NCBI GenBank assembly: GCA_041652755.1
Contig: JBAZGS010000002.1
Coordinates: forward strand, 24,516 to 88,515
DNA length: 64,000 nt
Direction of reading: 5' to 3'
Source: Candidatus Nanoarchaeia archaeon
Lineage (GTDB): Archaea; Nanobdellota; Nanobdellia; Tiddalikarchaeales; Tiddalikarchaeaceae
The notes below the pieces were generated by a model. That model saw only the letters and a program-made list of their open reading frames with translations. It was not told the origin of the DNA and did not search any database. The position numbers were made by a program, and so were the translations under genes. Shown one piece after another: positions 6,868-34,041 of this stretch (the stretch's first letter is position 1; every line of letters begins with the position of its first letter).

Positions 6868-6922
6868 AAAAAGATGTTTTTTTATAGAAACTTTTAAATA
6901 TACATTTGTTTAATTATTTAAT

Positions 6923-7153
6923 ATGAGCGCTAAAGAAGCCAATAATTCTGGATTAGTAACATTTACTAAGCATGGATATCAATTAGGGATTTTTTCAAGT
7001 GGAGATTTTTTGCTTTATGAAACCAAAATTAACCCTAAAGGCAAAAAAGAATACGTTGTTTCTGACAAAAAAGATCCTTTAGAAATAATGCCTGAAAATG
7101 TGTTTAAAGAGCTTTCAGATGTTTTAAGTAGGTATAATAGTTCTAAAAACTAG
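6923..7153 (+). CDS. hypothetical protein
   Basis: 76-aa ORF. Confidence 0.25.
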   Translation: MSAKEANNSGLVTFTKHGYQLGIFSSGDFLLYETKINPKGKKEYVVSDKKDPLEIMPENVFKELSDVLSRYNSSKN

Positions 7154-7807: not shown

Positions 7808-7906
7808 TTATTTCTTTTTTTTAGCAGGTTTTTTTCCCACTTTTTTTTTAGCAGGTTTTTTAGCAACAGGTTTGCTGCCACATCCACCGCATAATCCGCA
7901 ATTCAT
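7808..7906 (-). CDS. tiny basic peptide (32 aa) MNCGLCGGCGSKPVAKKPAKKKVGKKPAKKKK
   Basis: Hand-translated ORF missed by the ORF track. TATA-like tttataa sits about 25 nt upstream, so it is likely leaderless. A paralog lies 220 bp away with conserved 5' and 3' flanks. Confidence 0.45.
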   Translation of the reverse strand: MNCGLCGGCGSKPVAKKPAKKKVGKKPAKKKK

Positions 7907-8025
7907 GATAACTTATAAATCCTGAAAGATTATAAACTTTTTTCAAAATTTGAGTTTATACGTTAAAAAAAATAAAAAAAATTAAATAAAAAAAAAATTA
8001 GTGAATATTGAATTTAGAGATTCAA

Positions 8026-8118
8026 TTATTTCTTTTTTTTAGCAGCTGCTTTTTTCTTTGGTGCAGCTTTTTTCTTTGGTGCAGCTTTTTTTGGTGCTGC
8101 TTTTTTCTTTGGTGCCAT
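8026..8118 (-). CDS. tiny basic peptide (30 aa) MAPKKKAAPKKAAPKKKAAPKKKAAAKKKK
   Basis: Hand-translated. Has the same flanking architecture as the 7808-7906 ORF, with TATA-like tttataag about 25 nt upstream. Confidence 0.45.
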   Translation of the reverse strand: MAPKKKAAPKKAAPKKKAAPKKKAAAKKKK

Positions 8119-8180
8119 GCGTTAAATAAGTAACTGATATCTTATAAATCTTTTTTTTTATGGAGCAAAAAAGTTAATTT

Positions 8181-20554: not shown

Positions 20555-21289
20555 ATGAAATTTGACATTCACTGCCATTTGACAAGCAAAGAATATGAAT
20601 CCATTAAAGGAGCAATAGATGAGTGCGAAAGAAACAATATAATCCTAATAACTAACGGTTTAGACTATTCAGACAATGAAAAAGTGCTTGAATTATCTAA
20701 AAATTACAAAAACGTTTACCCTTCACTAGGTATGCATCCAACAAATGATTTTGACAATAGAGTAATAAGCCAAATAATCAAAAACAAAAATGAAATAGTG
20801 GCAATTGGAGAGGTTGGTTTGGATTATAAAAATGGCATTAGCAAAGCCCAATCAGTTAATTTTAAAAAATTAATAAAATTATCCCAAGAATTAAATAAGC
20901 CTTTAATAGTTCATTCAAGAAGCGCTGAAAAAGAAGTGATAAATGAGCTAAAAACTTTGAAAGTTCCAGTAATCCTTCACTGTTTCACTGGTAAAAAAAA
21001 ACTTCTAAAAGATGCAATGCTTAACCCCAATATTTATTTTTCAATTCCTGCAAGCATAAAATACTCTGAGCAATTCCAAGCTTTGGCAAAAGAAGTGCCG
21101 ATTAATAGGTTATTATGCGAAACTGACAGCCCTTATTTATGGAAAAGCGGACTAAACACTCCAATTAATGTCATTAATTCTTATGAAATGATTGCCAAAA
21201 TAAAAGGCTTAAAGTTAAGCGATTGCGAAAAAACTATACAAAGCACTGTAAAAAAAGTTTTCAAAATCACAGAATTTAAAAATAATTAA
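20555..21289 (+). CDS. TatD-family metal-dependent hydrolase
   Basis: FDIHCHL N-terminal motif, His/Glu/Asp metal ligands (GEVGLD, VHSR, HCF, ETDSPY). Confidence 0.8.
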   Translation: MKFDIHCHLTSKEYESIKGAIDECERNNIILITNGLDYSDNEKVLELSKNYKNVYPSLGMHPTNDFDNRVISQIIKNKNEIVAIGEVGLDYKNGISKAQSVNFKKLIKLSQELNKPLIVHSRSAEKEVINELKTLKVPVILHCFTGKKKLLKDAMLNPNIYFSIPASIKYSEQFQALAKEVPINRLLCETDSPYLWKSGLNTPINVINSYEMIAKIKGLKLSDCEKTIQSTVKKVFKITEFKNN

Positions 21290-21304
21290 CTTATCAATAA
21301 GCTC

Positions 21305-22681
21305 ATGCAAAAAAGCTTATTTTCAATATTACTAATTCTTGCAATAATCCCTATTGCATGCTCTGGAATTGAAATTAAAACAAGTGCCATAATCAATCAG
21401 GTAAAGCCAGGGGAGATTGTTTCTTACAACTTATTAATAAATAATACTGACATGTGGAATAAAACAGCAACAATATTCTTGCTAACAGACAAGCTTTATG
21501 CAATAGAGCCAACTTACTTTTTAATACTTCCAGGCAACACTCAAACAATAGCCAAAATAAACATTATTGTTCCAAACAATTTAGCTGCCCAAAGGTATTA
21601 TGAGGATGTTTTCATAAAATTCAGCGACTTCACAGAAGTAACACAAAGAATAAGCTATGATGTAAGAGGTCCTGAATTATACTTAAAGCTTGATTCCATG
21701 GAAATTGAGCAAGACATTGACCCCTTGAATGATTTTAACATCAATTTAACAATTGAAAATAATTATTTTGAAAAAGCAAAAACTGCTCTTTTGCAAATAA
21801 ATGTTTATGATGATAGCGACAATTCAGTCTATTACACTTCAAAGCAGATTGATTTACTGGAAGGCATTAATAGCTACAATCTCTCCCTTAATATTGGCGA
21901 AGAATTAACCACTCCTTATCTGAAAATAAACGTTTCAATGAAATGGTTTGAGCTTGATTTAGGGACAATAAGCGGAATAGCAACCCTTCAAGAGCCTTCA
22001 GGAGAAATTGAAATCGTAAAGCAGTCGAACAAAATAATAATCACTAATTCTAAAGAAACAGTAATTCCAGCTTTCAGCCAAGAACAGCAAATAAACATTT
22101 TAGAATCGTTATTGATTAAATCAGCAACAGTTCCATACTCACTAACAGCATCTTCAATAATCTATGAGGTTCCCTCTTTGAATCCAGGAGAAAGCATAAC
22201 ATTAAGCTATGAAATAGACTACTTGCTTCCATTATTAGTCCTGCTATTTCTAATAATATTGACTTATTTCTCTTTAACCAAATCTATTAAGGTCAAAAAA
22301 GAATTAAAAGACATTAAAATAAGCCATAACTCCCTTAGTTTCAAAATAGTGCTGAAAATAACCAATGTTTCAAGCAAAAAATTCAGCCATTTAAAAATCC
22401 TGGAACATTTGCCATCAATAATCTCTGACATTCACAGCTTTGGCACAGTGCATGGAGACATAAAAATAATCAACAAGCAAAAATTCATCCAATGGGAAGT
22501 TAAGAATTTAAAGCCAAAAGAAGAGGTTGAATTCAGCTACAAAGCCAACACTAAAATAGGGTTCTTAGGGGATTTAACACTTGACAATAGCAGGGTTGAA
22601 ATACTAAATGATGAGGGCAAAATTGACAAAAAACTCAACACTCAAACAATAGTGCTTTCAATAAACCAAAAAAATAAATGA
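21305..22681 (+). CDS. cell-surface protein (signal peptide, C-terminal TM)
   Basis: N-terminal hydrophobic signal and a LLPLLVLLFLIILTYF TM segment near residue 300. Confidence 0.35.
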   Translation: MQKSLFSILLILAIIPIACSGIEIKTSAIINQVKPGEIVSYNLLINNTDMWNKTATIFLLTDKLYAIEPTYFLILPGNTQTIAKINIIVPNNLAAQRYYEDVFIKFSDFTEVTQRISYDVRGPELYLKLDSMEIEQDIDPLNDFNINLTIENNYFEKAKTALLQINVYDDSDNSVYYTSKQIDLLEGINSYNLSLNIGEELTTPYLKINVSMKWFELDLGTISGIATLQEPSGEIEIVKQSNKIIITNSKETVIPAFSQEQQINILESLLIKSATVPYSLTASSIIYEVPSLNPGESITLSYEIDYLLPLLVLLFLIILTYFSLTKSIKVKKELKDIKISHNSLSFKIVLKITNVSSKKFSHLKILEHLPSIISDIHSFGTVHGDIKIINKQKFIQWEVKNLKPKEEVEFSYKANTKIGFLGDLTLDNSRVEILNDEGKIDKKLNTQTIVLSINQKNK

Positions 22682-23013
22682 ACCAAAAAGGTTATAAAGA
22701 ATTGTTTTTTTATTTTTCTCCTATGTTAGATAAATATTTCAGCACATTCAATGTTTTATGCTCTGAAGATAAAGAGACAATTTCCAAGGAAAAATTCCAG
22801 CAACTTTTAAAAATAAGATTAAACAGAACCCACAGCACTACTGATTTAGAAACAGTCATCATAAAGACTCGCGAGCAATTCTTAAGCTCAGTCAATGATG
22901 AAATGTACATTGGCGATTTATTCCAGGAGATCTATAACCCTAACAAGCAGTCATTGGATTCTAAAAAAGACTATGTCTATAGCGAATTCCATAATTACTT
23001 CTTAACAGAATAA
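22678..23013 (+). CDS. hypothetical protein
   Basis: 111-aa ORF overlapping the upstream stop. Confidence 0.3.
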   Translation: MNQKGYKELFFYFSPMLDKYFSTFNVLCSEDKETISKEKFQQLLKIRLNRTHSTTDLETVIIKTREQFLSSVNDEMYIGDLFQEIYNPNKQSLDSKKDYVYSEFHNYFLTE

Positions 23014-23073
23014 GATTTAATACTGCCAAGTGATAAAGTTTAAAAATACTATATTAGCTAATATATTATTAAT

Positions 23074-23145
23074 GCTCTGGTAGTCTAGTGGTTAGGACAT
23101 CAGCCTGTCACGCCGATAACCTGGGTTCGAATCCCAGCCAGGGCG
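23074..23145 (+). tRNA. tRNA-Asp (GTC)
   Basis: Acceptor GCTCTGG/CCAGGGC with one G-U pair, anticodon loop cTGTCAc, T-arm ctgggttcgaatcccag. Its 3' end is the attachment core of the adjacent element. Confidence 0.85.
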
Positions 23146-23197
23146 GGAATTCCATAGGTATCACTTAAGGTATGAACTAAAAAGAACAAATACTTAG

Positions 23198-24397
23198 GTG
23201 ATATACATGGATGAATTAGACATACATGACAGAAGAAAAAGATATGAAAAAACTGTCAAAAATATAGAAAAAGACAAAAATTTAACAACAAAAAATAAAG
23301 AATTTCTATTAAAATTAAAAGATGACTTATTTGCATTCGGCCTAAGTCTTGATAGGGTATTATTTTATCTGCATAGACTTAAAAGAATGGGCAAATGGCT
23401 TAACATGGATTTTGATAAAGCAACAATTGATGATCTAAAAAGATTAATTGTTGAACATGTTGAGAATGGAAGAGTTCCATCAACAGGAAAATCTTACACA
23501 GAAAATACTAAGAGAGATTTCAAACGATCCTTAAAGAGTTTTTACAAATGGATAGCAGAAATTCCATGGACAGAAATGAATTATCCAGACAAAGTCAAAT
23601 GGATTAACATAGGATTAAAACAATGCAAAGCAAGACTTCCGGATGACTTACTCTCAAAAGAAGATATAAACAAAATGATTGCTCATTCAGGAAATTTAAG
23701 AGACAAAGCAATGATTTCAACACTTTATGAAGGAGGTTTTAGAATAGGAGAATTATTAAATATTAAACTTAGGGATTTAAGCTTCACAGAATATGGAGTA
23801 AAAGTTATTGTTTCAGGAAAAACAGGAATGAGAACAGACTTATTAATAAATTCAACACAACTGCTTGCAACATGGATAGAAAATCATCCACTAAGAGACA
23901 AAAGAGACAGTTATTTATGGATTACTATGTCAACAAACAACAAAGGCAAAGGAATGAAATATGGAGGAGTAGCCAAGAGATTTAAAGAGATTGCAAAATT
24001 ATCAGAAATACAGAAAGATGTTAATCCTCATAACTTTCGACACAGCAGAGCATCAGAGTTAGCAAATAAATTAACAGAAGCTCAAATGTGCAACTATTTT
24101 GGATGGAGATTAGGCAGTAAAATGCCAGCAATCTATGTTCATCTCTCAGGAAGAGACATTGACGATGCCATTTTGAAGATGCATGGCTTAAAAAAGCATG
24201 AAGAAGAGCTGGAATTCACAGAAATCAAATGCCCAAGATGTAATCAAAAAAACAACTCAGCAAGCAAATACTGCTCATACTGTGGACTACTCGTTGATGA
24301 AAAAGAGGCCATAACAATGGTAAAAGTAGGAAATGACATGATACCTTACTCAGCAATCCAAGAAATGATAAAAGCAGAGATACAAAGAATGAAATAA
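23198..24397 (+). CDS. int: tyrosine recombinase/integrase
   Basis: Catalytic signature R...HNFRHS...Y (IYVHLS) and a C-terminal Zn ribbon CPRCN...CSYC. Confidence 0.85.
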   Translation: MIYMDELDIHDRRKRYEKTVKNIEKDKNLTTKNKEFLLKLKDDLFAFGLSLDRVLFYLHRLKRMGKWLNMDFDKATIDDLKRLIVEHVENGRVPSTGKSYTENTKRDFKRSLKSFYKWIAEIPWTEMNYPDKVKWINIGLKQCKARLPDDLLSKEDINKMIAHSGNLRDKAMISTLYEGGFRIGELLNIKLRDLSFTEYGVKVIVSGKTGMRTDLLINSTQLLATWIENHPLRDKRDSYLWITMSTNNKGKGMKYGGVAKRFKEIAKLSEIQKDVNPHNFRHSRASELANKLTEAQMCNYFGWRLGSKMPAIYVHLSGRDIDDAILKMHGLKKHEEELEFTEIKCPRCNQKNNSASKYCSYCGLLVDEKEAITMVKVGNDMIPYSAIQEMIKAEIQRMK

Positions 24398-24404
24398 TTT
24401 AATT

Positions 24405-25637
24405 TTATTCTAATGAATCAAATCTTATTTTTTCATATTTTTCTATTATTATATCTAATAATTCCTCAGGTGAATTAATATTGTCTAATTCTTTTTTTAA
24501 TATTTCAATAATTGAAATATTAACATGATGAAATGCTTTAATTTTAGTTAATTTACATATTTTTCCAAGATCCCCAGTTGTTCCTTCAACAGAAAATATA
24601 ATTCCAAATTTACAATTATGAAAAATTAATTTAGTTAAAAAATGATTTAATTGGCTAGAATTAACTTTTTCAGTTGTATTTTTGCATTCGCATAAAACAT
24701 ATTCTCCAAATAAATTTTTAAATGGATAAATTAGATTATTTCTAAAAGCTATATCTATTTGATACTCTTTTAATATATTATCACTAGGTCCGACATTTAT
24801 ATTTTTAATAACATTTATTTGATCCAAAGTACTTAATAAATAAGTACAACAATCTTCAAATCTTAATCCTTTTTCATTATTATCTTTTGAATTTTTAATC
24901 CAATTAGAAAAAATATTCAATAAATTTTTATTAAAACTATTTAAAAAACTAAATTTATTTTTTTCTTTTGAATAAAAATAAATAAAACTTTCTGGAAAAT
25001 AAATAAAATCTTTTAAACTATCATAATTTTTCCTAACAAATGAAACAATTTCATCTAATTTTTCTTGAGAAAAAAATTCTGTTTTAAGAACTAAATATGC
25101 TTTTCCCATATAACAAGTGGATATTTTTTTTTCTATTTCACTAACAATATCTTCAATAAATGCAAATAAAGTGTATTGTTTCAATTTTTCAACATTATTC
25201 TTTTTTCTATAAATCCAACCTAATTGATGTAATATAAGTCCTTTATGAATTCTTTCTTTCTTTTCTAATTCATAATCATTTAAAAATTTATAAATATCTT
25301 TATATGCATATTCTGCTAATAATAAAAATTCTGCTGATTTAAATTCATTATATAACATAAAATAAAAGTATCCAATAGTATTTGAAAGAATTAATATTTC
25401 TTTAGTCTCTTTTATTTCCTTTAATAAAGCAATAAAAGAATGAAAATAATCATAAGAATTATTTGCTTTTGCACAAGTTTCAATTAGTCTTTTCCCCTCA
25501 ACTGAATAATCTTTTGTAATTTCATTTAATTCTTTATCTAACTTATCTTTTAATCCTTGAGGAATAATTCCTTCATAATTATTTTTTTCAATAACATATT
25601 TCATCAATAATTTTGCTATTCCAAATTCATCAACCAT
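24405..25637 (-). CDS. Mrr-like PD-(D/E)xK nuclease domain protein with uncharacterised alpha-helical N-terminal region
   Basis: C-terminal RFEDCC ... QIDIAF ... GEYVLCECK ... FGIIFSVEG fits the Mrr_cat E/D/ExK core. The N-terminal roughly 270 aa have no recognised motif. Confidence 0.45.
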   Translation of the reverse strand: MVDEFGIAKLLMKYVIEKNNYEGIIPQGLKDKLDKELNEITKDYSVEGKRLIETCAKANNSYDYFHSFIALLKEIKETKEILILSNTIGYFYFMLYNEFKSAEFLLLAEYAYKDIYKFLNDYELEKKERIHKGLILHQLGWIYRKKNNVEKLKQYTLFAFIEDIVSEIEKKISTCYMGKAYLVLKTEFFSQEKLDEIVSFVRKNYDSLKDFIYFPESFIYFYSKEKNKFSFLNSFNKNLLNIFSNWIKNSKDNNEKGLRFEDCCTYLLSTLDQINVIKNINVGPSDNILKEYQIDIAFRNNLIYPFKNLFGEYVLCECKNTTEKVNSSQLNHFLTKLIFHNCKFGIIFSVEGTTGDLGKICKLTKIKAFHHVNISIIEILKKELDNINSPEELLDIIIEKYEKIRFDSLE

Positions 25638-25729
25638 TAAAATTTAAATAATTTTTAACTATAAAAATATACCTTATTTAATAAAATTTCATAGACTGAA
25701 AAATATATTATTTTATTGATGTTTTTTCT

Positions 25730-26263
25730 TTAATAATCATTTTTTTTTACAAAAGAATCAAACATAATTAAATCAATATTAATATCTTTAAAGAATAAAT
25801 CAAAAAAATAATTAGCTTCTTTTTTTATTTCTTTATTACCTATTTTTGTAAAAAGCCATAAATATTTTGGAAAAGCATCAAATAAATATTTTAATCCTTC
25901 TTCATAAGGTAATCCATCTCTAGTTTTATATTTTAAATAAAAAACTTTATCTGATTCCTTTTTCTCAATTATTTTTTTTAAAAAAATTTCTGCAATAGGT
26001 ATTAATTTATCCCATTTTTTTATAATATTTAGTTTAATACATTTGCTTATAAATCCATTATAATTTATTTCATAAGTTATTGGTTTTCCATCATTTTTCT
26101 TAATTAATCCTTTTTTAGTCAAAATTCTTAATTCTTTATTAATATTATCTATATCTCTATTTCTTATTTTTTTTAATTCTAATGCAGATAAAGGTTTATG
26201 AATTAATTCAATAAAATCATTAAAATATTCTTTACTTCTATAAGGATATTTTACTTCTTCCAT
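25730..26263 (-). CDS. winged-helix domain protein
   Basis: LSALELKKIRNRDIDNINKELRILTKKGLIKK...ITYEIN is a wHTH pattern. Lies upstream of, and co-oriented with, the Mrr-like gene. Confidence 0.35.
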   Translation of the reverse strand: MEEVKYPYRSKEYFNDFIELIHKPLSALELKKIRNRDIDNINKELRILTKKGLIKKNDGKPITYEINYNGFISKCIKLNIIKKWDKLIPIAEIFLKKIIEKKESDKVFYLKYKTRDGLPYEEGLKYLFDAFPKYLWLFTKIGNKEIKKEANYFFDLFFKDINIDLIMFDSFVKKNDY

Positions 26264-26316
26264 AGGTAATTTTATACCCCAAAATAATATATAAAAATGT
26301 TGATTTTTGATTATTT

Positions 26317-26475
26317 ATGACAATTATTACAAAGAATATTTGTTTAGATGAAGATTTATTTAATAAATCAAAACAAATATGTAAAAGTACAGGACGAACA
26401 TTTTCTGGATTCGTGAGATTCCTTATTGAGAGGGAAATGGAAAAAGATGAAGGGAGTGGGAATAATGGAAATTAA
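26317..26475 (+). CDS. ribbon-helix-helix (CopG-like) protein, 52 aa
   Basis: Hand-translated MTIITKNICLDEDLFNKSKQICKSTGRTFSGFVRFLIEREMEK, with the RHH pattern of beta-strand, then helix, GR, then helix. Confidence 0.4.
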   Translation: MTIITKNICLDEDLFNKSKQICKSTGRTFSGFVRFLIEREMEKDEGSGNNGN

Positions 26476-26573
26476 ATCTTCTTTTAAAAACTGGTCTGAT
26501 TTAATGGATTTTGTTAAGTTAGAAGCCAAAGAGCAATTAATTAAACAAATTAAGAAAAAAGAGGTTAAATCTA

Positions 26574-26792
26574 ATGATGACAAAGGCACAAATTGATTTT
26601 GAATCTTGTAATTTTAGGGATGAATTAATCCTTTTTTTAATTAAACAAATGAATTGTGCAAGTCTTGAAACTTTAACTATTGTATCAGGGATTACTAAAG
26701 AAAAATTAACCAAAGTAATAAAAAGATTACAACAAAGAAAATTAATCAAAATTGCTACAACAATTAGAACAAATTATTATGGGGTGGTATAA
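26574..26792 (+). CDS. winged-helix DNA-binding protein
   Basis: ASLETLTIVSGITKEKLTKVIKRLQQRKLIKI is an HTH plus wing pattern. Confidence 0.4.
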   Translation: MMTKAQIDFESCNFRDELILFLIKQMNCASLETLTIVSGITKEKLTKVIKRLQQRKLIKIATTIRTNYYGVV

Positions 26793-27311
26793 ATGAATGA
26801 ATCAGATGAATTAATAAATAAAAAATTAGATTTAATTTTACAAAAAGTAATCAATATAGAAGAAAAACAAAGTTTGCGCATTAATGATACTAAAAAACAA
26901 CAATGTGAATTAATTAAAGAAAAACTTGAAGAAAATTCGGTTATTTCAAGTAATGGAATAAGTGATTTATTTAATTTTACTTATGCAGAGTATACTTATA
27001 GGTTAATTAAAACGTTTTCTAAACTTTATCCTAAAATATGTAAACTTATAAATGGAAAAAAAGGAAAAAATCCAAATATTATCCTAAATAAAAAGTCAAA
27101 TATATACTTAGCACTTAATTATCTTTATTCCAATTGTCCAAAAATTAATGATTACTTTAGTTTAAAGACTATTGAAATGCAATTCAATTTTAAATCTAAT
27201 GATTTAACTGTGTTTAAAGAAATCTTATTTCATTATCTTATTGATGAATGGAAATGTGGAGAAGATAATCATATAATTGTGCGTAAAAAAATAATAAGTG
27301 AAGTGTTTTAA
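26793..27311 (+). CDS. hypothetical protein
   Basis: 172-aa ORF with a start overlapping the upstream stop (taaATG). Confidence 0.3.
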   Translation: MNESDELINKKLDLILQKVINIEEKQSLRINDTKKQQCELIKEKLEENSVISSNGISDLFNFTYAEYTYRLIKTFSKLYPKICKLINGKKGKNPNIILNKKSNIYLALNYLYSNCPKINDYFSLKTIEMQFNFKSNDLTVFKEILFHYLIDEWKCGEDNHIIVRKKIISEVF

Positions 27312-27550
27312 TAAATATTATTAACAAAAGAGTTACAAATTATATTTTTTTTTTAATGCTCCCAATTATTAATAATAAATATTAACAGTATTGTTGTTTA
27401 TTTATTGTATTTTATTATTATATTATATATAATATATTTGTAACTTAATTGTTATAATATTAGTTTAACATAAACAAACAAAATTTAATTAAATTTATTA
27501 AAAAAATGCTGCTAAAATAGAAAGAAACGACAGACAAAAATCCAGTATAA

Positions 27551-27645
27551 GCAAGAGAGTAAGCAAGAGAAAATTAATAATCATAGCTCGAGGCATAGCC
27601 CGAGAAATTGTCCATAGCGAGAGCCATAGCATGAGAAAATGATTT
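27551..27645. repeat. cluster of short direct repeats (2x gcaagaga; 4x CATAGC-N-GAG units) in a 387-bp AT-rich intergenic region
   Basis: gcaagaga at 27551 and 27563. catagc at 27582, 27594, 27613 and 27625, each followed by (c/t)cgag or gagag. Confidence 0.5.
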
Positions 27646-27698
27646 TTTTTTTATCAAATATATTTGAGAAATAATATATTAAATAATCATATGCAACA

Positions 27699-28172
27699 TT
27701 ATTTATAATATCTTAATTTTATATTATAAGTTATTGTATTTGGAATTTCAAATAACAAATCTATATCTTCTGATTCTAAAGGTTGTAAATAATCTGAAAA
27801 TACATCTGAATAGCCGTTTAATACATATTTTGAGTAATCATTTTGACTAATCCAGTCATTATTTATACAATCATATATATTTCCATGATCATCTAATAAC
27901 TTAAATTTATCTGAGTTAATATATTTTGAGGTTTTTCCTATATTTTTTATAGTAATTTCAACAATCGCAACATTTTGTTTTATACTATTAGAATAATATT
28001 TATTTAATACTGTTCCTGTGGGTGAAGCTGTTGAAGATTCTAAACGAATGGATAAATTATTTAATTCTTGTGTTTCTAAAGGAGAAATATCAATATATTT
28101 TTTTGAATCCGAATCTGATACTAATCCAATTAAAATTATAATTACAACTATCCAAAAAATACTAATTTTCAT
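27699..28172 (-). CDS. secreted/membrane-anchored protein (DUF4352-like fold suspected)
   Basis: N-terminal TM/signal MKISIFWIVVIIILIGLVS, then a beta-rich domain. Confidence 0.3.
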   Translation of the reverse strand: MKISIFWIVVIIILIGLVSDSDSKKYIDISPLETQELNNLSIRLESSTASPTGTVLNKYYSNSIKQNVAIVEITIKNIGKTSKYINSDKFKLLDDHGNIYDCINNDWISQNDYSKYVLNGYSDVFSDYLQPLESEDIDLLFEIPNTITYNIKLRYYK

Positions 28173-28238
28173 TATTTTAACGCCTCTTTAACGTATTCTT
28201 AACCTATTCAAATAAAAACAACACGTTTTAAAAACGTT

Positions 28239-28490
28239 ATGGATTGGTTAAAATTAGGTAAAGTTAAAGGAAGTAAAAATAAGAAAATAATAATTAATGC
28301 TTTAAACAAGCCAAAAACACCAACAGAACTATCCCAAGAGCTAAAAATAGCAAGATCAACATGCAGTAGCACACTTTTAGAACTTGAAACAATGCAATTA
28401 GTTAAATGCTTAACCCCAGAACTAAAACTAGGAAGATTATACCAACTAACAGAAGAAGGAGAAGAAATAAAGAAAGAAATTAAATTATAA
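28239..28490 (+). CDS. winged-helix transcriptional regulator (ArsR/MarR-like)
   Basis: TPTELSQELKIARSTCSSTLLELETMQLVK. Sits directly upstream of the three-gene operon. Confidence 0.45.
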   Translation: MDWLKLGKVKGSKNKKIIINALNKPKTPTELSQELKIARSTCSSTLLELETMQLVKCLTPELKLGRLYQLTEEGEEIKKEIKL

Positions 28491-28532
28491 TGTTAACCTT
28501 TTAAACTTATAACTTTTAATATTATACTAAAC

Positions 28533-29639
28533 ATGTTATCTAAAAAAAATAAAAAATTGAATCCTCAAAAAAAAGGAAAAAAAGGTGAAAATAATTCAAT
28601 TAAAGCTTTAAAAGTATTATTTGAACAATTTTCTAGAATTAGTTCAATAAGAAAATATGAATCTGGTTTTCAGGGAGGAAAAGATATTAAAACATTTGCT
28701 TTTTTCAAAAAAAATAATTTTTTAGGTATTGTTGGAGATAAAAATTTAAAATGGTTTTTTGAAGTTAAACATTATGAAAGTAAATTAAATCCAGAAAAAG
28801 TTGTTTATAAAATTCATCAAGTTAAAGCTTCTAATTTAGAAATTGATTGTTTTTGTTTATTTTCTCCTAAAGAAGATATTCATGGTATATTGGAAGATAG
28901 TTTATCAGAAAAAAAAGTGTTAGATAATCCTGAATATCCATTTAAAATTGTATTATGGACTCCCTCTCAAAATATTAAAAGTAAATTATCTTGTTTTCCT
29001 GAAGTATATAAGGAAATTTATGATGAAGAAAGTAATATTTCAGATGATGATAAAAAAGAAATATTAAATAATTGGATCGAAGAAATTTATAAACAAACAG
29101 AAGAAGGAAAAAAAATACGTGAAGATTTTGTTACTAAATTTAAAGGAATAAATCCTATTTGGATTCCTGAAAGTATAAATTATGCACAAAATATAATTAT
29201 TGATGATGAAGGTCAAAAAACATTTTCTGAAAAACAATCAATATTAGAACAAAAACTTCGTATGGGAGGTATAAATGAATACCAAGATATTCTTAAAGCA
29301 AAAAGAAATAGAATATTAAGTGAAGGAATAAGAAGAAAATATAAAAAATCGGATGAAATTATTTTTATGGAATTGACCTCTATTAAATATGAATTAGAAA
29401 ATTTTTGTCTTGATTTAGAAAAAAATATTTTAGAAAAAGAATCAACTAATGAAGCAAGATTATTTTTAATAGAATTTTTTAATAAACTTGAAGAATTTAA
29501 ACAAAAATGTAAAAACAAAGAAATAATAGAAAAATTACCTAATTATTACTTTGATGGACAAATGTATGAAATAACTTCAGAATGCTTATTAAGTTTATCA
29601 AAAAAATGGTTAAAAGAAATAAAAGGTATATTAAAATGA
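28533..29639 (+). CDS. PD-(D/E)xK nuclease-domain protein (LmuA/DdmA-like candidate effector)
   Basis: N-terminal KALKVLFEQF ... GIVGD ... FFEVKHY, the E / D / ExK arrangement. The stop overlaps the next gene's ATG (ATGA). Confidence 0.45.
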   Translation: MLSKKNKKLNPQKKGKKGENNSIKALKVLFEQFSRISSIRKYESGFQGGKDIKTFAFFKKNNFLGIVGDKNLKWFFEVKHYESKLNPEKVVYKIHQVKASNLEIDCFCLFSPKEDIHGILEDSLSEKKVLDNPEYPFKIVLWTPSQNIKSKLSCFPEVYKEIYDEESNISDDDKKEILNNWIEEIYKQTEEGKKIREDFVTKFKGINPIWIPESINYAQNIIIDDEGQKTFSEKQSILEQKLRMGGINEYQDILKAKRNRILSEGIRRKYKKSDEIIFMELTSIKYELENFCLDLEKNILEKESTNEARLFLIEFFNKLEEFKQKCKNKEIIEKLPNYYFDGQMYEITSECLLSLSKKWLKEIKGILK

Positions 29640-30127
29640 AAGAAATTGATAATACTAAATTTTTAGAACTTGCTCAAATGATTTTATTATTAGGAAATTC
29701 ACAAAAAAATATAATTTATGAAAAACATAAATTCATGACTTTTTTATTTTTTATTAAAAATCCACTTTATTTAGGTAAATTATGTGAAAAAATACATCCG
29801 GAATTCTCAAAAAATATTCATTTAAATCATACTGAAGAATATAACTTATTATATGATATTGAAAGAATAAGTGTTTGGAATAGTAAAAATGATTTAAACA
29901 TTGCATATCTATTAGGTAAAGGATTAGTGAATGTTGAATTAACTGATAAAGGATATTCTTTTTCTTTAACCTTAGAGGGGTTAAAATTATTTAAATCATT
30001 AAAAAATGATAAATCTATGCAAATAGAAAATATTAGATCTAAAATTATAAACAATATTTTTAAAAAAGAATCTTTTAATGAAATAAAAGGTATAATAATT
30101 GATAATTTTAAGGAGTTAAATCTATGA
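29636..30127 (+). CDS. small alpha-helical protein (LmuC/DdmB-like position), 163 aa from the coupled ATG
   Basis: ATGA overlaps at both ends (29636-29639 and 30124-30127). No motif recognised. The ORF track's earlier start at 29582 is probably not used. Confidence 0.35.
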   Translation: MKEIDNTKFLELAQMILLLGNSQKNIIYEKHKFMTFLFFIKNPLYLGKLCEKIHPEFSKNIHLNHTEEYNLLYDIERISVWNSKNDLNIAYLLGKGLVNVELTDKGYSFSLTLEGLKLFKSLKNDKSMQIENIRSKIINNIFKKESFNEIKGIIIDNFKELNL

Positions 30128-32052
30128 ATAAAAATCCTTATATTCAAATAAAAAGATTAAAAGTGGAAGGTTTACATAAATTTGATAAATCTTTTAAAAA
30201 AGGTTTACATATTTTAGTTGGTAATAATAACTCTTGTGGAAAAAGTTTGTTTATTAAATTAATTGATTTTGCTTTAGGTGATGATGGTAATGATTTAAAG
30301 GAGTATGGTATTTTAAAAGATTGTTCTTTTTTTTATGCAGAATTAGAGGTAAATAATGAAACTTTAACAATAAAAAGAAATTTATATATTATTGATTCAA
30401 CAATTGAATTATTTTATAATAAAACTATTCAAGAAATATTAACTTCATCAATTATACCAGAATCTATATCTTACTCTGATTATCAAAAATTATTATTTAA
30501 AAAATTAACAAATTTTGATTATATTCCTACTATTAGTTCAAAAGGTAAAAAAGTTAGTATAGGTTTTCCTCATTTTTCAAATCTTTTTTATTTAAATCAA
30601 GGAGTAGCAGCAGGCCAATTATTTAGGTATAGTGATATTTATTTTCCAAATTATTTGAAAAAAAAAGTATTAAGTCTTTTCTTGAATACAAATGAAATAA
30701 AAAAATCATCTGATGAAATTGAATTAGGTAATTTAAAAGAACAAGTTAAAAATTCTATTGACCAATTAAATACAAAAAGATCTTTTTTTAATTCAAAATT
30801 TAATATAGATAATTATTTTGCTGAAATTGAAAATAAAAATAATATATTAAAAGAAATTGACACTTTAAAAGATAATTTAAATAATATAAATCAAGAGGCT
30901 TTAATTCAAATTGATTTACCTGTTCAAGAAAAAGATACTTTATATTTTTTAAAGAAAAGATTAGAGGAAATAAATAATTTAATATTTAATTGTAATACTA
31001 ATATTAAACAAACAACTAAGATATTAAATGATTATTCAGAAGAAATTTCTAAAACTGAAAAAAATATAACTTCATTTAATTTAATGAAAAAATTTGATAT
31101 ATCTATTTGTCCTGAATGCAATAAAAAAATAATTAAACAACTTAATAATAATTGTCCATTATGTAAAGAAAAATTAGATGAGGAAAAATCATTAAATAAT
31201 TATTTTGATAATAATATGAAATATTTAAGTTATTTAAAAGGTGCACTAAAAGATTCTGTTGATGTTATAAATAATGATAAAGAAAATGTAAATAAATTAA
31301 TAAAAGAAAGAGAAGAATTAATTAATGAAATAAATATTAAAGAAAAAAAATTAAATGATTTTATTAAAACAAATAAATTACCTATTTTAGATAAAATTTC
31401 TGAATTAAGTTATGAAATTTCAAAAAGAGAAGAAAAATTGAATTTTATAAATAAAAATATTGAAATATTAGAATCTTTCAAACATGAAGACGAAAGAATT
31501 GAAGATTTAAAAAACAAAATTAAAATTTTAAACAATAAAATTAAAGAGATAGAATCCGATTTAATTAATAAAAGTAGAGAAGAAAAGTTATTATCTATTT
31601 TAAATAATAATTTTAATTCTTTTTTTAATAATATTAATTATCCTTCATTTGAAAAAGCAAATTTGAATGAAAATTTTGATATAACTATTACTAACAATAG
31701 AGATGGTATCCAAAATTTAAATAAAATTACTTCCTCAAGTAATAGAATAATAATAAGATTAGGTTTATTTTATTCATTATTAAAAACTTCTTTAGAAAAT
31801 GATAATATAAATTATCCAAAGTTAATTTATTTAGATTCACCTAGAGATCAAGAATTAACTTGGGAGAGATTTAGTAATTCATTATTGTCTTTTAAAAGAT
31901 TATTAGACAATTCTGACGTTGAAGGTCAAGTATTTATTACTGTAGTAGAAGATGCTAAAAATGTTTTTGAAGGAGAATATGAATCTCTAAATGATAATGT
32001 ATTTATGAGAATTGAAGATAAATCTAATTTAAGATTATTAAGAAAAAATTAA
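30124..32052 (+). CDS. SMC/Rad50-like coiled-coil ABC ATPase (LmuB/DdmC-like)
   Basis: N-terminal LHILVGNNNSCGKSLFIKLIDFALG (Walker A in Rad50/RecF-type context), a roughly 400-aa N/K/E-rich predicted coiled coil, a central CPECN-x12-CPLCK knuckle and C-terminal KLIYLDSPRDQEL Walker B/D-loop. aaggag RBS lies 8 nt upstream. Confidence 0.55.
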   Translation: MNKNPYIQIKRLKVEGLHKFDKSFKKGLHILVGNNNSCGKSLFIKLIDFALGDDGNDLKEYGILKDCSFFYAELEVNNETLTIKRNLYIIDSTIELFYNKTIQEILTSSIIPESISYSDYQKLLFKKLTNFDYIPTISSKGKKVSIGFPHFSNLFYLNQGVAAGQLFRYSDIYFPNYLKKKVLSLFLNTNEIKKSSDEIELGNLKEQVKNSIDQLNTKRSFFNSKFNIDNYFAEIENKNNILKEIDTLKDNLNNINQEALIQIDLPVQEKDTLYFLKKRLEEINNLIFNCNTNIKQTTKILNDYSEEISKTEKNITSFNLMKKFDISICPECNKKIIKQLNNNCPLCKEKLDEEKSLNNYFDNNMKYLSYLKGALKDSVDVINNDKENVNKLIKEREELINEINIKEKKLNDFIKTNKLPILDKISELSYEISKREEKLNFINKNIEILESFKHEDERIEDLKNKIKILNNKIKEIESDLINKSREEKLLSILNNNFNSFFNNINYPSFEKANLNENFDITITNNRDGIQNLNKITSSSNRIIIRLGLFYSLLKTSLENDNINYPKLIYLDSPRDQELTWERFSNSLLSFKRLLDNSDVEGQVFITVVEDAKNVFEGEYESLNDNVFMRIEDKSNLRLLRKN

Positions 32053-32070
32053 TTTATTTTTAAAAGACGT

Positions 32071-32712
32071 TTATTTCCAATAAATTATACAAAATAAAAT
32101 TGATAAAATTAAAACAAAAATACTTATTTTTATCTTATTTTTAAATCTAAATTTTTTATTCTTTCCAAAAGTTATAAATGAAATAGATTTTAAGTAAAAA
32201 TAATTAATTAATATAGACATACTCATAAAAATTGAAATACTTCCTAATGAACTACTAATTTCTTTTGAAACAAAAAATAAAGTATAAATTGTATTTATCA
32301 ATGAAAAAATTAATACTAAAATTTCTATAAAAAATATAAAATTTAACCAATTTCCTAAATAAAATTCTTTTTTTGACTTATTGATTTCTCTTTGAATTAT
32401 ATAAGGAAAAAAAGTATATATAATAAGCGCAATTATTCCATATCCAAAACTAGTTATTAATTCTCCTGGTGGGGGATTATTAAATAATATAAAATTTATA
32501 ATATTTATACTAAATAGGAGTGGAACTATAAGACAAAATAAAGCTAAGAATATTAAGAGTAAGTTTCCAGATTCTTTTAAATTTTTAATTGTAACATATT
32601 TACCTTTCTTAAAAAATAGAATATACATAAAATAAGTATAAATTGCCAGAAATAAAAATATGTTAGTGTTGGGTAAAAAATTTAAAATTATTGATATAAT
32701 ATCTATACTCAT
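32071..32712 (-). CDS. polytopic membrane protein
   Basis: 6-7 TM segments; convergent with the operon and inside the element. Confidence 0.35.
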   Translation of the reverse strand: MSIDIISIILNFLPNTNIFLFLAIYTYFMYILFFKKGKYVTIKNLKESGNLLLIFLALFCLIVPLLFSINIINFILFNNPPPGELITSFGYGIIALIIYTFFPYIIQREINKSKKEFYLGNWLNFIFFIEILVLIFSLINTIYTLFFVSKEISSSLGSISIFMSMSILINYFYLKSISFITFGKNKKFRFKNKIKISIFVLILSILFCIIYWK

Positions 32713-32872
32713 ATTTGATTTAATTCACCTTTGACTAAAAAATATTTGTATTTTTTATGTATATTTTAAATATAATACTTATTAAGTAATTTTTTAAATC
32801 ATGTGCTCATTGTTTATATTAAGTTTAATGCTTAAGTAATACCCTAGAACCCAAATCCCAGCCAGGGCGCAC

Positions 32873-33715
32873 TTATTCTTTTTGTTTCCAATGATTGATT
32901 GCCTCAATATTGGTTCTGTAATAGTCTATTATTATGCCTTTTTTGAGCTCTTCATTACAGTCAATAAGCTTTTTCTGCTCAAAAGATGGTTCTAAGGTTC
33001 CAGTGTTTATGAAAATTCTCCTGTTAATCTCCCTATCTTTCCTGCCAAATCTCTTATATTTAAACACGTTGTCAAAGTAATCTTTTTCATCAGTGGTTTT
33101 TACGTAATACTTATTTTTGTTATCCATATTTAGCACCATCTCTTCGTCAAATAATTTTCCAATGAACATTAATTTATGAGTCCAATTCTGTGTTGGCAGT
33201 ATTGAAAGAAGCTCATTTCCTCTTTTTTTGCTGCTTTTGTCTGAATCATCATGAAATGAATTCGGCACAAATTCGTTATAAACGCTTTCTCCAGATAGGA
33301 GCACTTTTTTAAGCTTGGCATCTGAAGCGTTCAATGAGTCATAGATTGTCCTGAGCATGCACCAGTCAAGTTTTCCTCCTGTGAATATGAAAGAATCTTC
33401 ATGCTTAATCGAATCTTTTACTTCTTTTGGCAATACTCCTGAAATTGAGAACTCAAGATTGTAATTTTTCAGTTCCCTAAACTTTTTATTGCCTGTTATG
33501 ACATTTTCTTGCCCAAATTTTGTCAGGTCTTTGCTGTAAACATCGTTTATGCTGCCGTTTTTTTCCCTATAAACATCATAGATTAATCCGTCTTTGCAGC
33601 AGTCGCTCAGCTCAACAGTGCGACTAATTGGCAATTCATTTCCTAAATTTATCGGTCCCCAACCATTTCCCTCAACGTAATTCTTGTTGTAATGGGTTAT
33701 GAACATCACAGTCAT
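32873..33715 (-). CDS. hypothetical protein
   Basis: 280-aa ORF abutting attR on the chromosomal side. Confidence 0.3.
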   Translation of the reverse strand: MTVMFITHYNKNYVEGNGWGPINLGNELPISRTVELSDCCKDGLIYDVYREKNGSINDVYSKDLTKFGQENVITGNKKFRELKNYNLEFSISGVLPKEVKDSIKHEDSFIFTGGKLDWCMLRTIYDSLNASDAKLKKVLLSGESVYNEFVPNSFHDDSDKSSKKRGNELLSILPTQNWTHKLMFIGKLFDEEMVLNMDNKNKYYVKTTDEKDYFDNVFKYKRFGRKDREINRRIFINTGTLEPSFEQKKLIDCNEELKKGIIIDYYRTNIEAINHWKQKE

Positions 33716-34041
33716 AAAAATACAATTGAAACAATTCTATTTAAATAATTAATTACTTCCTTAAAAAAAAACTGATTAATTGAAGGATTAAAAAAAATCA
33801 TTTCTTCTGTCAATTATTTTAAAATTTTCACTTTCAATCATTTTAATTACTTATTATTAACTTATGGGCTTATAAAAATATTATTTTGAACTTACTAACT
33901 ATTGTTTTTTTATATAATCCTGAACTTTTGATTTAATATTCAACTAAAACAGTTTTTTCTTTTTGTCACTGAAAAGTTAACCTTATATTTTAAAAAATAG
34001 TGGGGAATATGAAAAATCATGAATGAGGTGTTTTTGAAAAA

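What the first reader, a model, noticed from the sequence alone, without database searches (positions are those of the whole stretch)
23130..32869. 9.7-kb integrative element in tRNA-Asp with intact integrase and defence-like cargo
The last 16 nt of tRNA-Asp (aatcccagccagggcg, 23130-23145) recur at 32854-32869. The integrase gene starts 53 nt inside the left repeat and reads away from the tRNA, the pNOB8-type intact-integrase arrangement. The cargo has no recognisable capsid, portal, terminase or replication initiator. It does carry an Mrr-like nuclease, three or four wHTH/RHH regulators, a secreted protein, a membrane protein and the three-gene ATPase-nuclease operon, so it looks like a mobile defence island or a cryptic element. 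Its coding composition (Asn/Lys/Ile-rich, long A/T runs) appears more extreme than the flanks; this is not computed.
Basis: seen in the sequence. Interest (0 to 1): 0.6.

Follow-up and report, generated by a model that had tools for sequence, protein, structure and literature searches.

The report
Integrated defence island in DPANN tRNA-Asp
A 9.7-kb mobile element has inserted into the end of the tRNA-Asp gene of a tiny symbiotic (DPANN) archaeon, carrying its own integrase and a complete Lamassu anti-virus system. It is a clear but fairly ordinary example of how defence genes travel between genomes.

Summary
The last 16 nt of tRNA-Asp(GTC) (23130-23145) recur exactly at 32854-32869, with 0 matches expected by chance. 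The DNA between them is 21% GC against 32% in the flanks.

Contigs from other samples map both crossover limits to this core. Three contigs and a 91%-identical relative follow the window to 23145 and then diverge. Another contig carries the identical element next to a different tRNA-Asp allele and flank, and switches at 23130.

The host is a Candidatus Nanoarchaeia MAG. The integrase (23207-24397) is intact, with canonical R-K-HxxR-W-Y residues and a C-terminal zinc ribbon. Its closest annotated relatives are integrases of archaeal pleomorphic viruses. It has the "intact after integration" arrangement but lacks the pNOB8 motif.

Caveats: no empty site or excised circle was seen, and synteny with relatives resumes about 1 kb beyond attR. 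This is a new member of a known kind.

The parts
23074..23145 (+). tRNA-Asp(GTC), intact. It is the integration target (attB side of attL).
   Evidence: ARAGORN. Rfam RF00005 at 65.1 bits, model positions 1-71/71.
23130..23145 (+). attL core: the last 16 nt of the tRNA (3' part of the T-loop, T-stem, acceptor strand and discriminator).
   Evidence: Exact repeat with 0 expected by chance. L006-L008, L014 and L019 diverge from the window exactly after 23145. L012 is identical to the window from 23130 rightwards and divergent to the left.
23207..24397 (+). Tyrosine integrase, 396 aa, intact, with a C-terminal CxxC..CxxC zinc ribbon.
   Evidence: PF00589 at 1.7e-21. More than 775 full-length homologs. 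Invariant R179 K205 H275 R278 W300 Y310 and C342/345/356/359. Best annotated match is the integrase of Geoglobus acetivorans pleomorphic virus 1, 39% identity, E 1e-65.
24405..25637 (-). 410-aa near-orphan protein: helical N-terminal region plus a probable Mrr-like PD-(D/E)xK nuclease C-terminus (..ECK..).
   Evidence: No direct Pfam hit. Its only distant homolog, P0132, has Mrr_cat PF04471 at 24.4 bits (cutoff 21) in the region that aligns with residues 305-407. phrog_18586 at 7e-6.
25730..26263 (-). 177-aa protein with an N-terminal winged-helix domain (weak).
   Evidence: TrmB PF01978 at 3.4e-4, below the cutoff.
26317..26475 (+). 52-aa ribbon-helix-helix-like protein (weak).
   Evidence: Precomputed PF07878 RHH_5, marked weak.
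26574..26792 (+). 72-aa winged-helix protein (MarR / Sulfolobus pRN-like, weak).
   Evidence: PF01047 at 2.6e-4 and PF05584 at 1.8e-3, both below cutoff.
26793..27311 (+). 172-aa protein of unknown function.
   Evidence: No hit in Pfam, PHROGs, NCBIfam or PADLOC.
27699..28172 (-). 157-aa DUF4352 protein with an N-terminal hydrophobic segment (secreted or membrane-anchored).
   Evidence: PF11611 at 32.3 bits (cutoff 25.9). phrog_806 at 1.7e-8.
28239..28490 (+). 83-aa winged-helix protein immediately upstream of the Lamassu operon; a possible regulator.
   Evidence: Weak HxlR / HVO_A0261_N hits. Csa3/CasR-type wHTH models at 1e-5. A 39.5%-identical homolog lies in the L020 element.
28533..29639 (+). 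LmuA effector, 368 aa: N-terminal PD-(D/E)xK (Cap4-like) nuclease domain (D51, E77-x-K79) plus a helical C-terminal domain.
29636..30127 (+). LmuC (ABC-3C middle component), 163 aa; its ORF overlaps both neighbours.
   Evidence: PADLOC LmuC at 4.2e-10. Pfam MC4/MC2 are weak here, but the homolog in L020 has an unmarked MC4 hit.
30124..32052 (+). LmuB, a short SMC/Rad50-like ATPase of 642 aa.
   Evidence: PADLOC LmuB at 1.9e-45 over 1-574. Walker A G33-x4-G39-K40-S41, Walker B LIYLD571-S and two CxxC motifs (C329/C332, C344/C347) are conserved in 4 homologs.
32071..32712 (-). 213-aa multi-pass membrane protein of unknown function; the last gene of the element.
   Evidence: Very hydrophobic sequence. 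No family hits.
32854..32869 (+). attR core: a 16-nt copy of the tRNA 3' end that is not part of a tRNA.
   Evidence: No tRNA is detected here by ARAGORN or Rfam.
32870..33904 (-). Segment outside the att repeats that is also absent from relatives. It holds a 280-aa orphan gene (32873-33715, minus strand) and has host-like GC of 0.316. It may be older island material or strain-specific host DNA.
   Evidence: L019 synteny resumes only at window 33905. GC. The gene was found only in contigs that also carry the element.

Best explanation
This is an integrated mobile genetic element of about 9.72 kb in the chromosome of a Candidatus Nanoarchaeia (DPANN) archaeon.

How it got there. The element's own tyrosine recombinase recombined a 16-18-bp core in the circular element (attP, just upstream of int) with the identical 3' end of the tRNA-Asp(GTC) gene (attB). 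This regenerated a complete tRNA at attL and left a 16-bp copy at attR. Because attP lies outside the int gene, the gene stays intact. This is the lambda-like 'type II' archaeal arrangement.

What it carries. The payload is defence. There is a short three-component Lamassu system. By analogy with solved Lamassu complexes, LmuB2-LmuC would hold LmuA inactive, sense DNA ends or replication intermediates of an invader, and release LmuA to oligomerise into an active PD-(D/E)xK nuclease (abortive infection). There is also a probable Mrr-like nuclease fused to a helical domain, several small winged-helix/RHH regulators, and two envelope or membrane proteins. No replication, conjugation or virion module is detectable, so the element probably depends on another agent for transfer between cells.

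Shown here: the repeat, the junction polymorphism, the composition, integrase integrity, and the Lamassu identity by sequence and fold.

Inferred: the recombination chemistry, current excision competence, the Lamassu mechanism, and the defence phenotype.
For: Site:
- Exact 16-nt repeat of the tRNA 3' end with 0 expected by chance.
- The other tRNA in the window (Asn) has no such repeat.

Junction polymorphism:
- L007 and L008 have left flanks 100% identical to the window, and L006 is 99.4% identical. All three leave the window exactly after 23145.
- The 91%-identical species genome L019 lacks the whole segment and has an unrelated 2.5-kb island between tRNA-Asp and purC.
- L012 carries the element's left end with 0 mismatches across 23146-24603. 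It has 7 mismatches in 23038-23129 and an unrelated flank further left, so the same element sits in a second background and the switch falls at the core.

Foreignness: GC 0.214 inside against about 0.32 outside.

Not an assembly artefact: five independent assemblies agree.

Integrase:
- Full length, with catalytic residues invariant across the family.
- Closest annotated relatives are integrases of temperate archaeal viruses, and related Archaeoglobi proviruses integrate at tRNA genes (PMC10919331).
- In IMG/VR, 5 of 8 relatives sit at the extreme end of a provirus, and 2 of the other 3 abut a tRNA-Leu.

Lamassu:
- LmuB at 1.9e-45 and LmuC at 4e-10.
- Motifs are conserved.
- The A-C-B operon is conserved in all five other complete or near-complete contexts examined.
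- It is repeatedly found next to integrases, restriction-modification genes, a transposase or a TraC-like ATPase.
- L020 holds a second, independent element of about 8.9 kb in a tRNA-Asp(GTC), with its own tRNA-end repeat and an unrelated integrase.
Against: - No attB (empty site) or attP (circle) junction was found. The one metagenome scan did not contain the relevant samples, so this is untested rather than negative.
- Synteny with L019 resumes at 33905, about 1 kb beyond attR. The event history at this locus is therefore more than one clean insertion.
- The integrase gene has host-like GC (0.319) while the cargo is 0.199, which is compatible with a mosaic origin.
- The LmuA model has only moderate confidence (pLDDT 64), and sequence HMMs for LmuA do not recognise it.
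- The Mrr-like assignment of the 410-aa protein is transitive, through a single homolog.
- L012 is a single short metagenome contig.
Confidence: 0.8

Rival explanations
1. A fossil or accreted island. The tRNA-Asp-purC interval is a hypervariable locus in which material from several events has piled up. The integrase and the very AT-rich cargo have separate origins, and the present unit no longer moves as one element.
For: - Integrase GC is 0.319 against cargo 0.199.
- The synteny break extends to 33904, beyond attR.
- L019 has a different low-GC island (0.248) with no integrase at the same place, and L018 has yet another insert bounded by a 145-nt repeat.
- The same Lamassu clade travels with unrelated integrases elsewhere.
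- No attP or attB was seen, and there is no replication module.
Against: - The 16-nt repeats are perfect and the integrase is intact with all catalytic residues.
- The element end is 100% identical in a second host background, with the switch exactly at the core. That argues for recent movement by site-specific recombination.
- A conserved integrase gene is expected to be richer in GC than fast-evolving cargo in an AT-rich genome.
Confidence: 0.17
2. A cryptic provirus or virus satellite whose structural genes are too divergent to recognise. DPANN viruses are poorly known.
For: - The closest annotated integrases belong to archaeal pleomorphic and tailed viruses.
- The DUF4352 protein and the 410-aa protein hit PHROG families of unknown function.
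- Several ORFs are orphans.
Against: - There is no hit to capsid, portal, terminase, VP4-like fusogen, packaging ATPase or any replication protein in Pfam, PHROGs or NCBIfam.
- 3.5 kb of the 9.7 kb is Lamassu and 1.2 kb is a nuclease-like protein, which leaves little room for a virion module.
Confidence: 0.05
3. Not a mobile element. The recombinase is a housekeeping XerA-type enzyme next to a tRNA, and the 16-nt repeat is a coincidence or an assembly artefact.
For: The best NCBIfam hit is archaeal XerA.
Against: - The XerA score is 90.9 bits against a cutoff of 220.
- The gene is absent from this locus in L019 and in L006-L008.
- The repeat has 0 chance expectation.
- Identical junctions appear in five independent assemblies.
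- Junction polymorphism maps to both edges of the repeat.
Confidence: 0.01

Closest known systems
Type II (lambda-like, 'pNOB8 arrangement') archaeal integrative elements in tRNA genes (She et al. 2002/2004; review PMC8371274)
   Same: The integrase gene stays intact after integration. The att core is the 3' end of a tRNA gene and the tRNA is regenerated at attL. The int gene lies next to one att site.
   Different: The integrase has the canonical HxxR box, not the YxxR that defines the pNOB8 subfamily. It also carries a C-terminal zinc ribbon. The host is a DPANN archaeon rather than Sulfolobales. No conjugation or replication genes are present.
Integrases of temperate archaeal pleomorphic viruses of Archaeoglobi (GacPV1 BK065156, ThalV2 BK065158; PMC10919331)
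   Same: These are the closest annotated sequence relatives: 39% and 34% identity over 83-87% of the protein, zinc-ribbon region included. A related provirus described in that paper (AvPV1) integrates with a short direct repeat at a tRNA gene.
   Different: This element has no VP3/VP4-like virion proteins and no rolling-circle Rep. Its cargo is defence genes.
Short (type II) Lamassu / DdmABC / ABC-3C systems, e.g. Vibrio cholerae Lamassu Vc-Cap4 and Salmonella LmuACB (PMC12663957; PDB 9nxx, 9hqx)
   Same: - Gene order is LmuA-LmuC-LmuB with overlapping ORFs.
- LmuB is about 640 aa with Walker A Gx4GKS (K40, the same position as the essential K40 of the V. cholerae protein) and Walker B hhhhDS.
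- LmuC is an MC4-like middle component.
- LmuA has an N-terminal PD-(D/E)xK nuclease domain plus a helical C-terminal domain, with the same overall fold.
   Different: - The LmuA sequence is not recognised by PADLOC or Pfam models. It belongs to a tiny clade (10 clusters among 5.8 billion) seen in DPANN-type contigs.
- LmuB has two CxxC motifs, whereas the V. cholerae protein has none.
- The host is archaeal. Only 7 archaeal genomes (Euryarchaeota and Thaumarchaeota) had Lamassu in the RefSeq survey.
- Activity is untested.
Bacterial defence-carrying integrative islands and satellites at tRNA hotspots
   Same: A small integrase-bearing island at a tRNA gene whose payload is mainly defence systems. 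Alternative occupants are found at the same site in close relatives.
   Different: The host is archaeal (DPANN). No helper-exploitation or packaging genes were identified.

Membership tests
Tyrosine recombinase superfamily | Catalytic R-K-H-x-x-R-(H/W)-Y residues in a PF00589 domain | tested here: met
   PF00589 at 77 bits. R179, K205, H275, R278, W300 and Y310 are invariant in a 20-sequence family alignment.
Type II archaeal integrative element (integrase intact after integration) | Full-length int gene inside the element, with att direct repeats at both ends and one overlapping the target gene | tested here: met
   The 396-aa protein aligns end to end with more than 100 homologs. The cores lie at 23130-45 and 32854-69, and int starts 61 nt after attL.
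Type II archaeal integrative element (integrase intact after integration) | Reversible integration: attP circle and empty attB detectable | tested here: inconclusive
   The degenerate-pattern scan found neither. However, that collection lacks the samples that contain the element, so raw reads would be needed.
pNOB8-type integrase subfamily (She, Chen & Chen 2004, as summarised in PMC8371274) | Consensus R...YxxR...Y | tested here: not met
   Box II is H275-N-F-R278, with H275 invariant in the family. No pNOB8 record was among the listed plasmid hits.
SSV-type ('suicidal') integrase | attP lies inside the int gene, so the gene is split on integration; consensus R...KxxR...Y | tested here: not met
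   The gene is intact and lies wholly between the cores. It has an HxxR box.
Archaeal XerA (chromosome dimer resolvase) | NCBIfam NF040815 equivalog score of at least 220 bits | tested here: not met
   Score is 90.9 bits. The gene is absent from the locus in close relatives.
Lamassu (short, three-component LmuACB) | LmuB: SMC/Rad50-like ATPase of about 600 aa with Walker A Gx4GK[ST] and Walker B hhhhD[QSTE] | tested here: met
   PADLOC LmuB PDLC03862 at 1.9e-45 covering residues 1-574. GNNNSCGKS and LIYLDS are conserved. Criteria are taken from PMC12663957.
Lamassu (short, three-component LmuACB) | LmuC middle component encoded between LmuA and LmuB | tested here: met
   PADLOC LmuC at 4.2e-10. 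Pfam MC4 is below cutoff here but on record for the L020 and L037 homologs.
Lamassu (short, three-component LmuACB) | LmuA: N-terminal effector domain plus the conserved ABC-3C C-terminal domain | tested here: met
Lamassu (short, three-component LmuACB) | Protects against phage or plasmid in a way that depends on the LmuB ATPase and the LmuA catalytic residues | not testable with these tools
   Requires expression and challenge experiments.
Cap4-type LmuA effector subtype | Cap4-like PD-(D/E)xK nuclease domain with catalytic D...ExK | tested here: inconclusive
Mrr-like restriction endonuclease (PF04471), for the 410-aa protein | Pfam Mrr_cat domain above the gathering score | tested here: inconclusive
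   No direct hit even with the isolated C-terminus. The only homolog, P0132, passes (24.4 > 21 bits) in the aligned region, which contains the ECK motif. The AF2 model is unusable (pLDDT 39).
Provirus (tailed, pleomorphic or spindle) | Hallmark virion or packaging genes (capsid, portal, terminase, VP4-like fusogen) | tested here: not met
   None found in Pfam, PHROGs or NCBIfam.
Integrated plasmid / ICE | Replication initiator or conjugation (VirB4/TraG-like) genes | tested here: not met
   None found. A Lamassu homolog elsewhere (L037) does sit next to a TraC-like ATPase.

The most novel reading that the evidence does not exclude
tRNA-Asp(GTC) may be a dedicated landing pad for defence islands across DPANN archaea. 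Unrelated integrases have independently delivered one DPANN-restricted Lamassu clade to it (the window and L020). These small islands have no replication genes and may behave as defence-carrying satellites, mobilised by DPANN viruses or through the cell-cell contacts of the symbiosis. The LmuA of this clade escapes current defence-finder models, so Lamassu and similar systems would be systematically under-counted in ultra-small archaea.
Probability: 0.12. Interest if true: 0.6.

Novelty: new member of a known kind. Interest (0 to 1): 0.35.

Why it matters
DPANN archaea have genomes of about 1 Mb and live attached to other cells. Little is known about their mobile elements or their immunity.

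This locus is a cleanly delimited example. Both crossover limits are mapped by natural variation. It shows that classic tRNA-targeted, integrase-mediated islands carry defence systems in these organisms. It also shows that a complete SMC-type Lamassu system exists there in a form that sequence-based defence annotation would call incomplete.

The finding supplies concrete substrates for testing an uncharacterised, widespread family of zinc-ribbon integrases: an attP/attB core of 16-18 bp and a 396-aa integrase. It also supplies an archaeal Lamassu for comparison with the bacterial structures.

It does not change any concept. The kind of element, the kind of integrase and the kind of defence system are all known.

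Tried and rejected
- Empty site and excised circle. One degenerate pattern covering attL, attR, attB, attP and the alternative junction was scanned against the metagenome collection. It found only the alternative junction and two unrelated bacterial-looking hits. The collection lacks the source samples, so the result is uninformative.
- Exact-protein look-ups of both flanking genes and of the last element gene gave no contig with tRNA-Asp joined to the 32870 flank, and none with the right end joined to the left end.
- The Logan contig L001 ends at 23157 and 34015. I considered this as a sign of an att branch point. The break is 11 nt inside the element rather than at the core, so I did not count it.
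- A third, degenerate att copy that would indicate tandem elements: none with up to 3 mismatches.
- An 18-aa tblastn match of the L019 methyltransferase to window 33797-33850 (E 6e-4) is too weak and not collinear, so I did not use it.
- Structure of the 410-aa protein from a single sequence: pLDDT 39, unusable. PDB sequence searches gave nothing.
- Rfam on the element and on the L019 island found only the tRNA.
- The bacterial promoter/terminator scan showed no enrichment and is irrelevant for an archaeon.
- tRNAs near the closest integrase homologs L024 and L025: none found, so a tRNA neighbour is not universal in the family.
- tRNA-Asn (6676-6749) served as a control and a possible second island: no repeat of its 3' end.

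Full report
**1. The observation**

ARAGORN finds tRNA-Asp(GTC) at 23073-23146. Rfam aligns a full-length tRNA to 23074-23145 (65 bits). The 16-mer AATCCCAGCCAGGGCG occurs exactly twice in the 64-kb window, at 23130-23145 and 32854-32869. There is no third copy even with three mismatches, and none of 100 dinucleotide-preserving shuffles gave two matches.

The repeat covers the last three bases of the T-loop, the 3' T-stem, the 3' acceptor strand and the discriminator, so it ends exactly at the end of the tRNA. It does not extend leftwards (g versus a at 23129/32853). The other tRNA in the window (Asn) has no such repeat.

- GC is 0.214 for 23146-32853, against 0.317 to the left and 0.326 to the right.
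- The cargo without the integrase is 0.199.
- Asn+Lys+Ile make up 34% of cargo proteins against 27.5% of flank proteins.
- The integrase gene itself is host-like, at 0.319.

**2. Natural variation maps the junctions**

Exact-protein look-ups and two pattern scans recovered independent assemblies of this region.

*Identical copies.* Five assemblies reproduce the window sequence, including both junctions where they reach them. They are JGI 3300035208 (also NCBI GCA_041657525.1), Logan SRR18595300, SRR18595299 and SRR6484787, and ENA ERZ27247350. An assembly artefact is therefore excluded.

*Right limit of the crossover.* Contigs from three other samples (L006, L007/L014, L008) have left flanks 99.4-100% identical to the window. 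They leave it exactly after 23145 and continue into unrelated DNA.

*The relative that lacks the element.* The species-level relative L019 is a Candidatus Nanoarchaeia MAG with about 91% nucleotide identity.
- It matches window 20704-23145.
- It then has an unrelated 2.5-kb, low-GC (0.248) island of four genes.
- It matches again from window 33905 (purC) onwards.

*Left limit of the crossover.* Contig L012 carries the element's left end with no mismatch over 23146-24603. It has seven mismatches confined to 23038-23129, the last of them adjacent to the core, and an unrelated sequence further left. So the same element sits next to a different tRNA-Asp allele in another background.

Together these contigs place the crossover limits at the two edges of the 16-nt core.

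*A small extra.* attR has CA before the core, which gives 18 nt of identity with the L012 tRNA allele (T-loop TTCAAAT) but only 16 nt with the window's own tRNA.

**3. Caveats on the history of the locus**

There is no simple empty site. Relatives carry a different island, and synteny resumes about 1 kb beyond attR. The segment 32870-33904 holds a 280-aa orphan gene with host-like GC of 0.316. It is also specific to this strain, and it was only ever found together with the element.

A 78%-identical relative (L018) has yet another insert at the same tRNA, bounded by a 145-nt direct repeat that starts inside the tRNA 3' end. The tRNA-Asp-purC interval is therefore a recombination hotspot with several occupants. 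The present arrangement probably reflects more than one event.

I found no attP or attB junction. The only collection-wide scan available did not contain the samples that hold the element, so excision remains untested.

**4. The integrase**

The gene most likely starts at ATG 23207 and encodes 396 aa. The family consensus begins MDxxDIH.

Features of the protein:
- It has a PF00589 catalytic domain (1.7e-21) and a weak N-terminal SAM-like domain.
- It has more than 775 full-length homologs of about 400 aa at 40-49% identity, from Nanoarchaeia, Aenigmatarchaeota and Thermoplasmata MAGs.
- R179, K205, H275-x-x-R278, W300 and Y310 are invariant, as are four cysteines of a C-terminal zinc ribbon.

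What it is not:
- It is not XerA: 90.9 bits against a cutoff of 220.
- It is not SSV-type, because the gene is intact.
- It does not have the R..YxxR..Y consensus that defines the pNOB8 subfamily (PMC8371274).

So 'pNOB8-type' applies only to the arrangement, which is type II, lambda-like and intact after integration.

The closest annotated relatives are the integrases of Geoglobus acetivorans pleomorphic virus 1 (39% identity over 87%, E 1e-65) and ThalV2, followed by a Methanomicrobiales tailed virus and haloarchaeal plasmids. A related Archaeoglobus provirus, AvPV1, integrates at a tRNA gene with short direct repeats (PMC10919331). In IMG/VR, five of eight relatives lie at the extreme end of a predicted provirus, and two of the other three abut a tRNA-Leu. 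The two closest homologs on long contigs sit among restriction-modification, SIR2 and HerA-like genes, with no tRNA detected nearby.

**5. The cargo**

*Lamassu.* The three overlapping genes at 28533-32052 are a short, three-component Lamassu (ABC-3C/DdmABC-type) system.
- LmuB (642 aa) hits PADLOC LmuB at 1.9e-45. It has Walker A GNNNSCGK40S, Walker B LIYLD571S and two CxxC motifs, all conserved in homologs. These match the criteria for short LmuB in PMC12663957.
- LmuC (163 aa) hits PADLOC LmuC at 4e-10.
- The 368-aa first gene has no hit in Pfam, PADLOC, PHROGs, NCBIfam or PDB sequences.
- D51 and E77-x-K79 are invariant, which fits a PD-(D/E)xK nuclease.
- A profile search of 1.8 billion representatives shows that the N-terminal domain of about 185 aa also occurs fused to NACHT/STAND, TPR, PIN and kinase proteins. 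That is typical of a portable immune effector.

This LmuA clade is tiny: 10 clusters among 5.8 billion, one of them from an Aenigmatarchaeota MAG. The A-C-B operon is conserved in every complete or near-complete context examined. It is associated with integrases, a transposase, type I and type II restriction-modification genes, or a TraC-like ATPase.

In L020 the operon lies in a second, independent element of about 8.9 kb. That element is also inserted in a tRNA-Asp(GTC), has its own repeat of the tRNA end, shows a GC dip, and has an integrase with no detectable similarity to the window's.

*Other cargo.*
- The 410-aa protein is a near-orphan. Its C-terminus aligns (E 2e-14) with the Mrr_cat-positive region of its single homolog.
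- There are four small winged-helix or RHH proteins, all below Pfam thresholds.
- There is a DUF4352 envelope protein, which is above threshold.
- There is a polytopic membrane protein.
- No replication, partition, conjugation or virion gene was detected.

**6. Mechanism (inference marked)**

Shown here: a foreign segment is bounded by a tRNA-derived core. It is variably present among near-identical strains and present in two backgrounds. It encodes an intact tyrosine recombinase and a complete Lamassu operon.

Inferred from established knowledge of tyrosine recombinases: the integrase exchanged strands within the 16-18-bp core shared by attP and the tRNA 3' end, restoring the tRNA.

Inferred from the Lamassu structures (PMC12663957): LmuB2-LmuC sequesters monomeric LmuA, senses DNA ends or replication intermediates, and releases LmuA to oligomerise into an active nuclease, aborting the infection. 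The upstream wHTH gene may regulate the operon. Because the element has no replication or transfer module, it probably relies on other agents to move between cells.

**7. Novelty and score**

Integrase-mediated islands at tRNA genes, archaeal type II integrases and Lamassu are all known. Three things are new here:
- the host, a DPANN archaeon;
- an LmuA clade that current sequence models cannot see;
- a well-mapped att site for a large, uncharacterised family of zinc-ribbon integrases.

A RefSeq survey found Lamassu in only seven archaeal genomes, none of them DPANN. The single paper in the library that mentions both DPANN and Lamassu does not connect them.

I classify this as a new member of a known kind, with modest interest (0.35).

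Noticed in passing
L018:5378-5522 and L018:6750-6894: A 145-nt direct repeat (96% identical) begins inside the tRNA-Asp 3' end of a 78%-identical relative. It brackets a 1.37-kb insert with a single 212-aa ORF and no integrase. This is a different kind of insertion at the same tRNA.
   Followed up: partly
L019:2438-2490; also L006, L007, L008, L015 and L018 just after tRNA-Asp: A motif of about 45 nt (TTTTCTGATAMCGCCCAAAAGGTTGTTTAAAAAACCTTTGGAGGC, containing a hairpin) directly follows tRNA-Asp in genomes that lack the element. It is better conserved (about 88-92%) than the neighbouring coding flanks (67-78%). It has no Rfam match.
   Followed up: partly
window 32852-32869 compared with L012:~165-182: attR shares 18 nt (CAAATCCCAGCCAGGGCG) with the tRNA-Asp allele of the second host background (L012), but only 16 nt with the window's own tRNA. 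This hints that the element's attP is matched to the other allele.
   Followed up: no
window 32873-33715 (minus strand): A 280-aa orphan gene with host-like GC lies just outside attR. It is absent from the 91%-identical relative and was found only in contigs that also carry the element. It has no family hits.
   Followed up: partly
L020:7129-16155: A second, independent element of about 8.9 kb sits in a tRNA-Asp(GTC) of another lineage (272-kb JGI contig). The repeats are CGGTTGGGGCGT..AACTTCT at 7191 and 16133, there is a GC dip, and it carries a homologous Lamassu operon with an unrelated 385-aa integrase that is not adjacent to either att site.
   Followed up: partly
L024:1783-19108: The closest long-contig homolog of the integrase (P0013, 48% identity) is embedded among Eco57I/MmeI-like restriction-modification genes, an IS1595 transposase, and a DUF87 (HerA-like) plus SIR2 pair. 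This looks like another defence island, and no tRNA was detected nearby.
   Followed up: no
L036:4022-9358: In an Aenigmatarchaeota MAG, a 1778-aa CDC48 AAA ATPase with intein and LAGLIDADG domains lies next to a Lamassu LmuA homolog at a contig end.
   Followed up: no
L037:1428-8910: A Lamassu homolog sits directly downstream of a 1032-aa TraC/VirB4-like ATPase and a DUF2779 protein. This suggests carriage on a conjugative-type element in another archaeal or metagenomic lineage.
   Followed up: no
window 6676-9000: tRNA-Asn(GTT) is followed by about 2.5 kb of low-GC DNA (0.25-0.27) with few long ORFs. There is no repeat of its 3' end in the window, so there is no evidence of a second bounded element.
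   Followed up: partly
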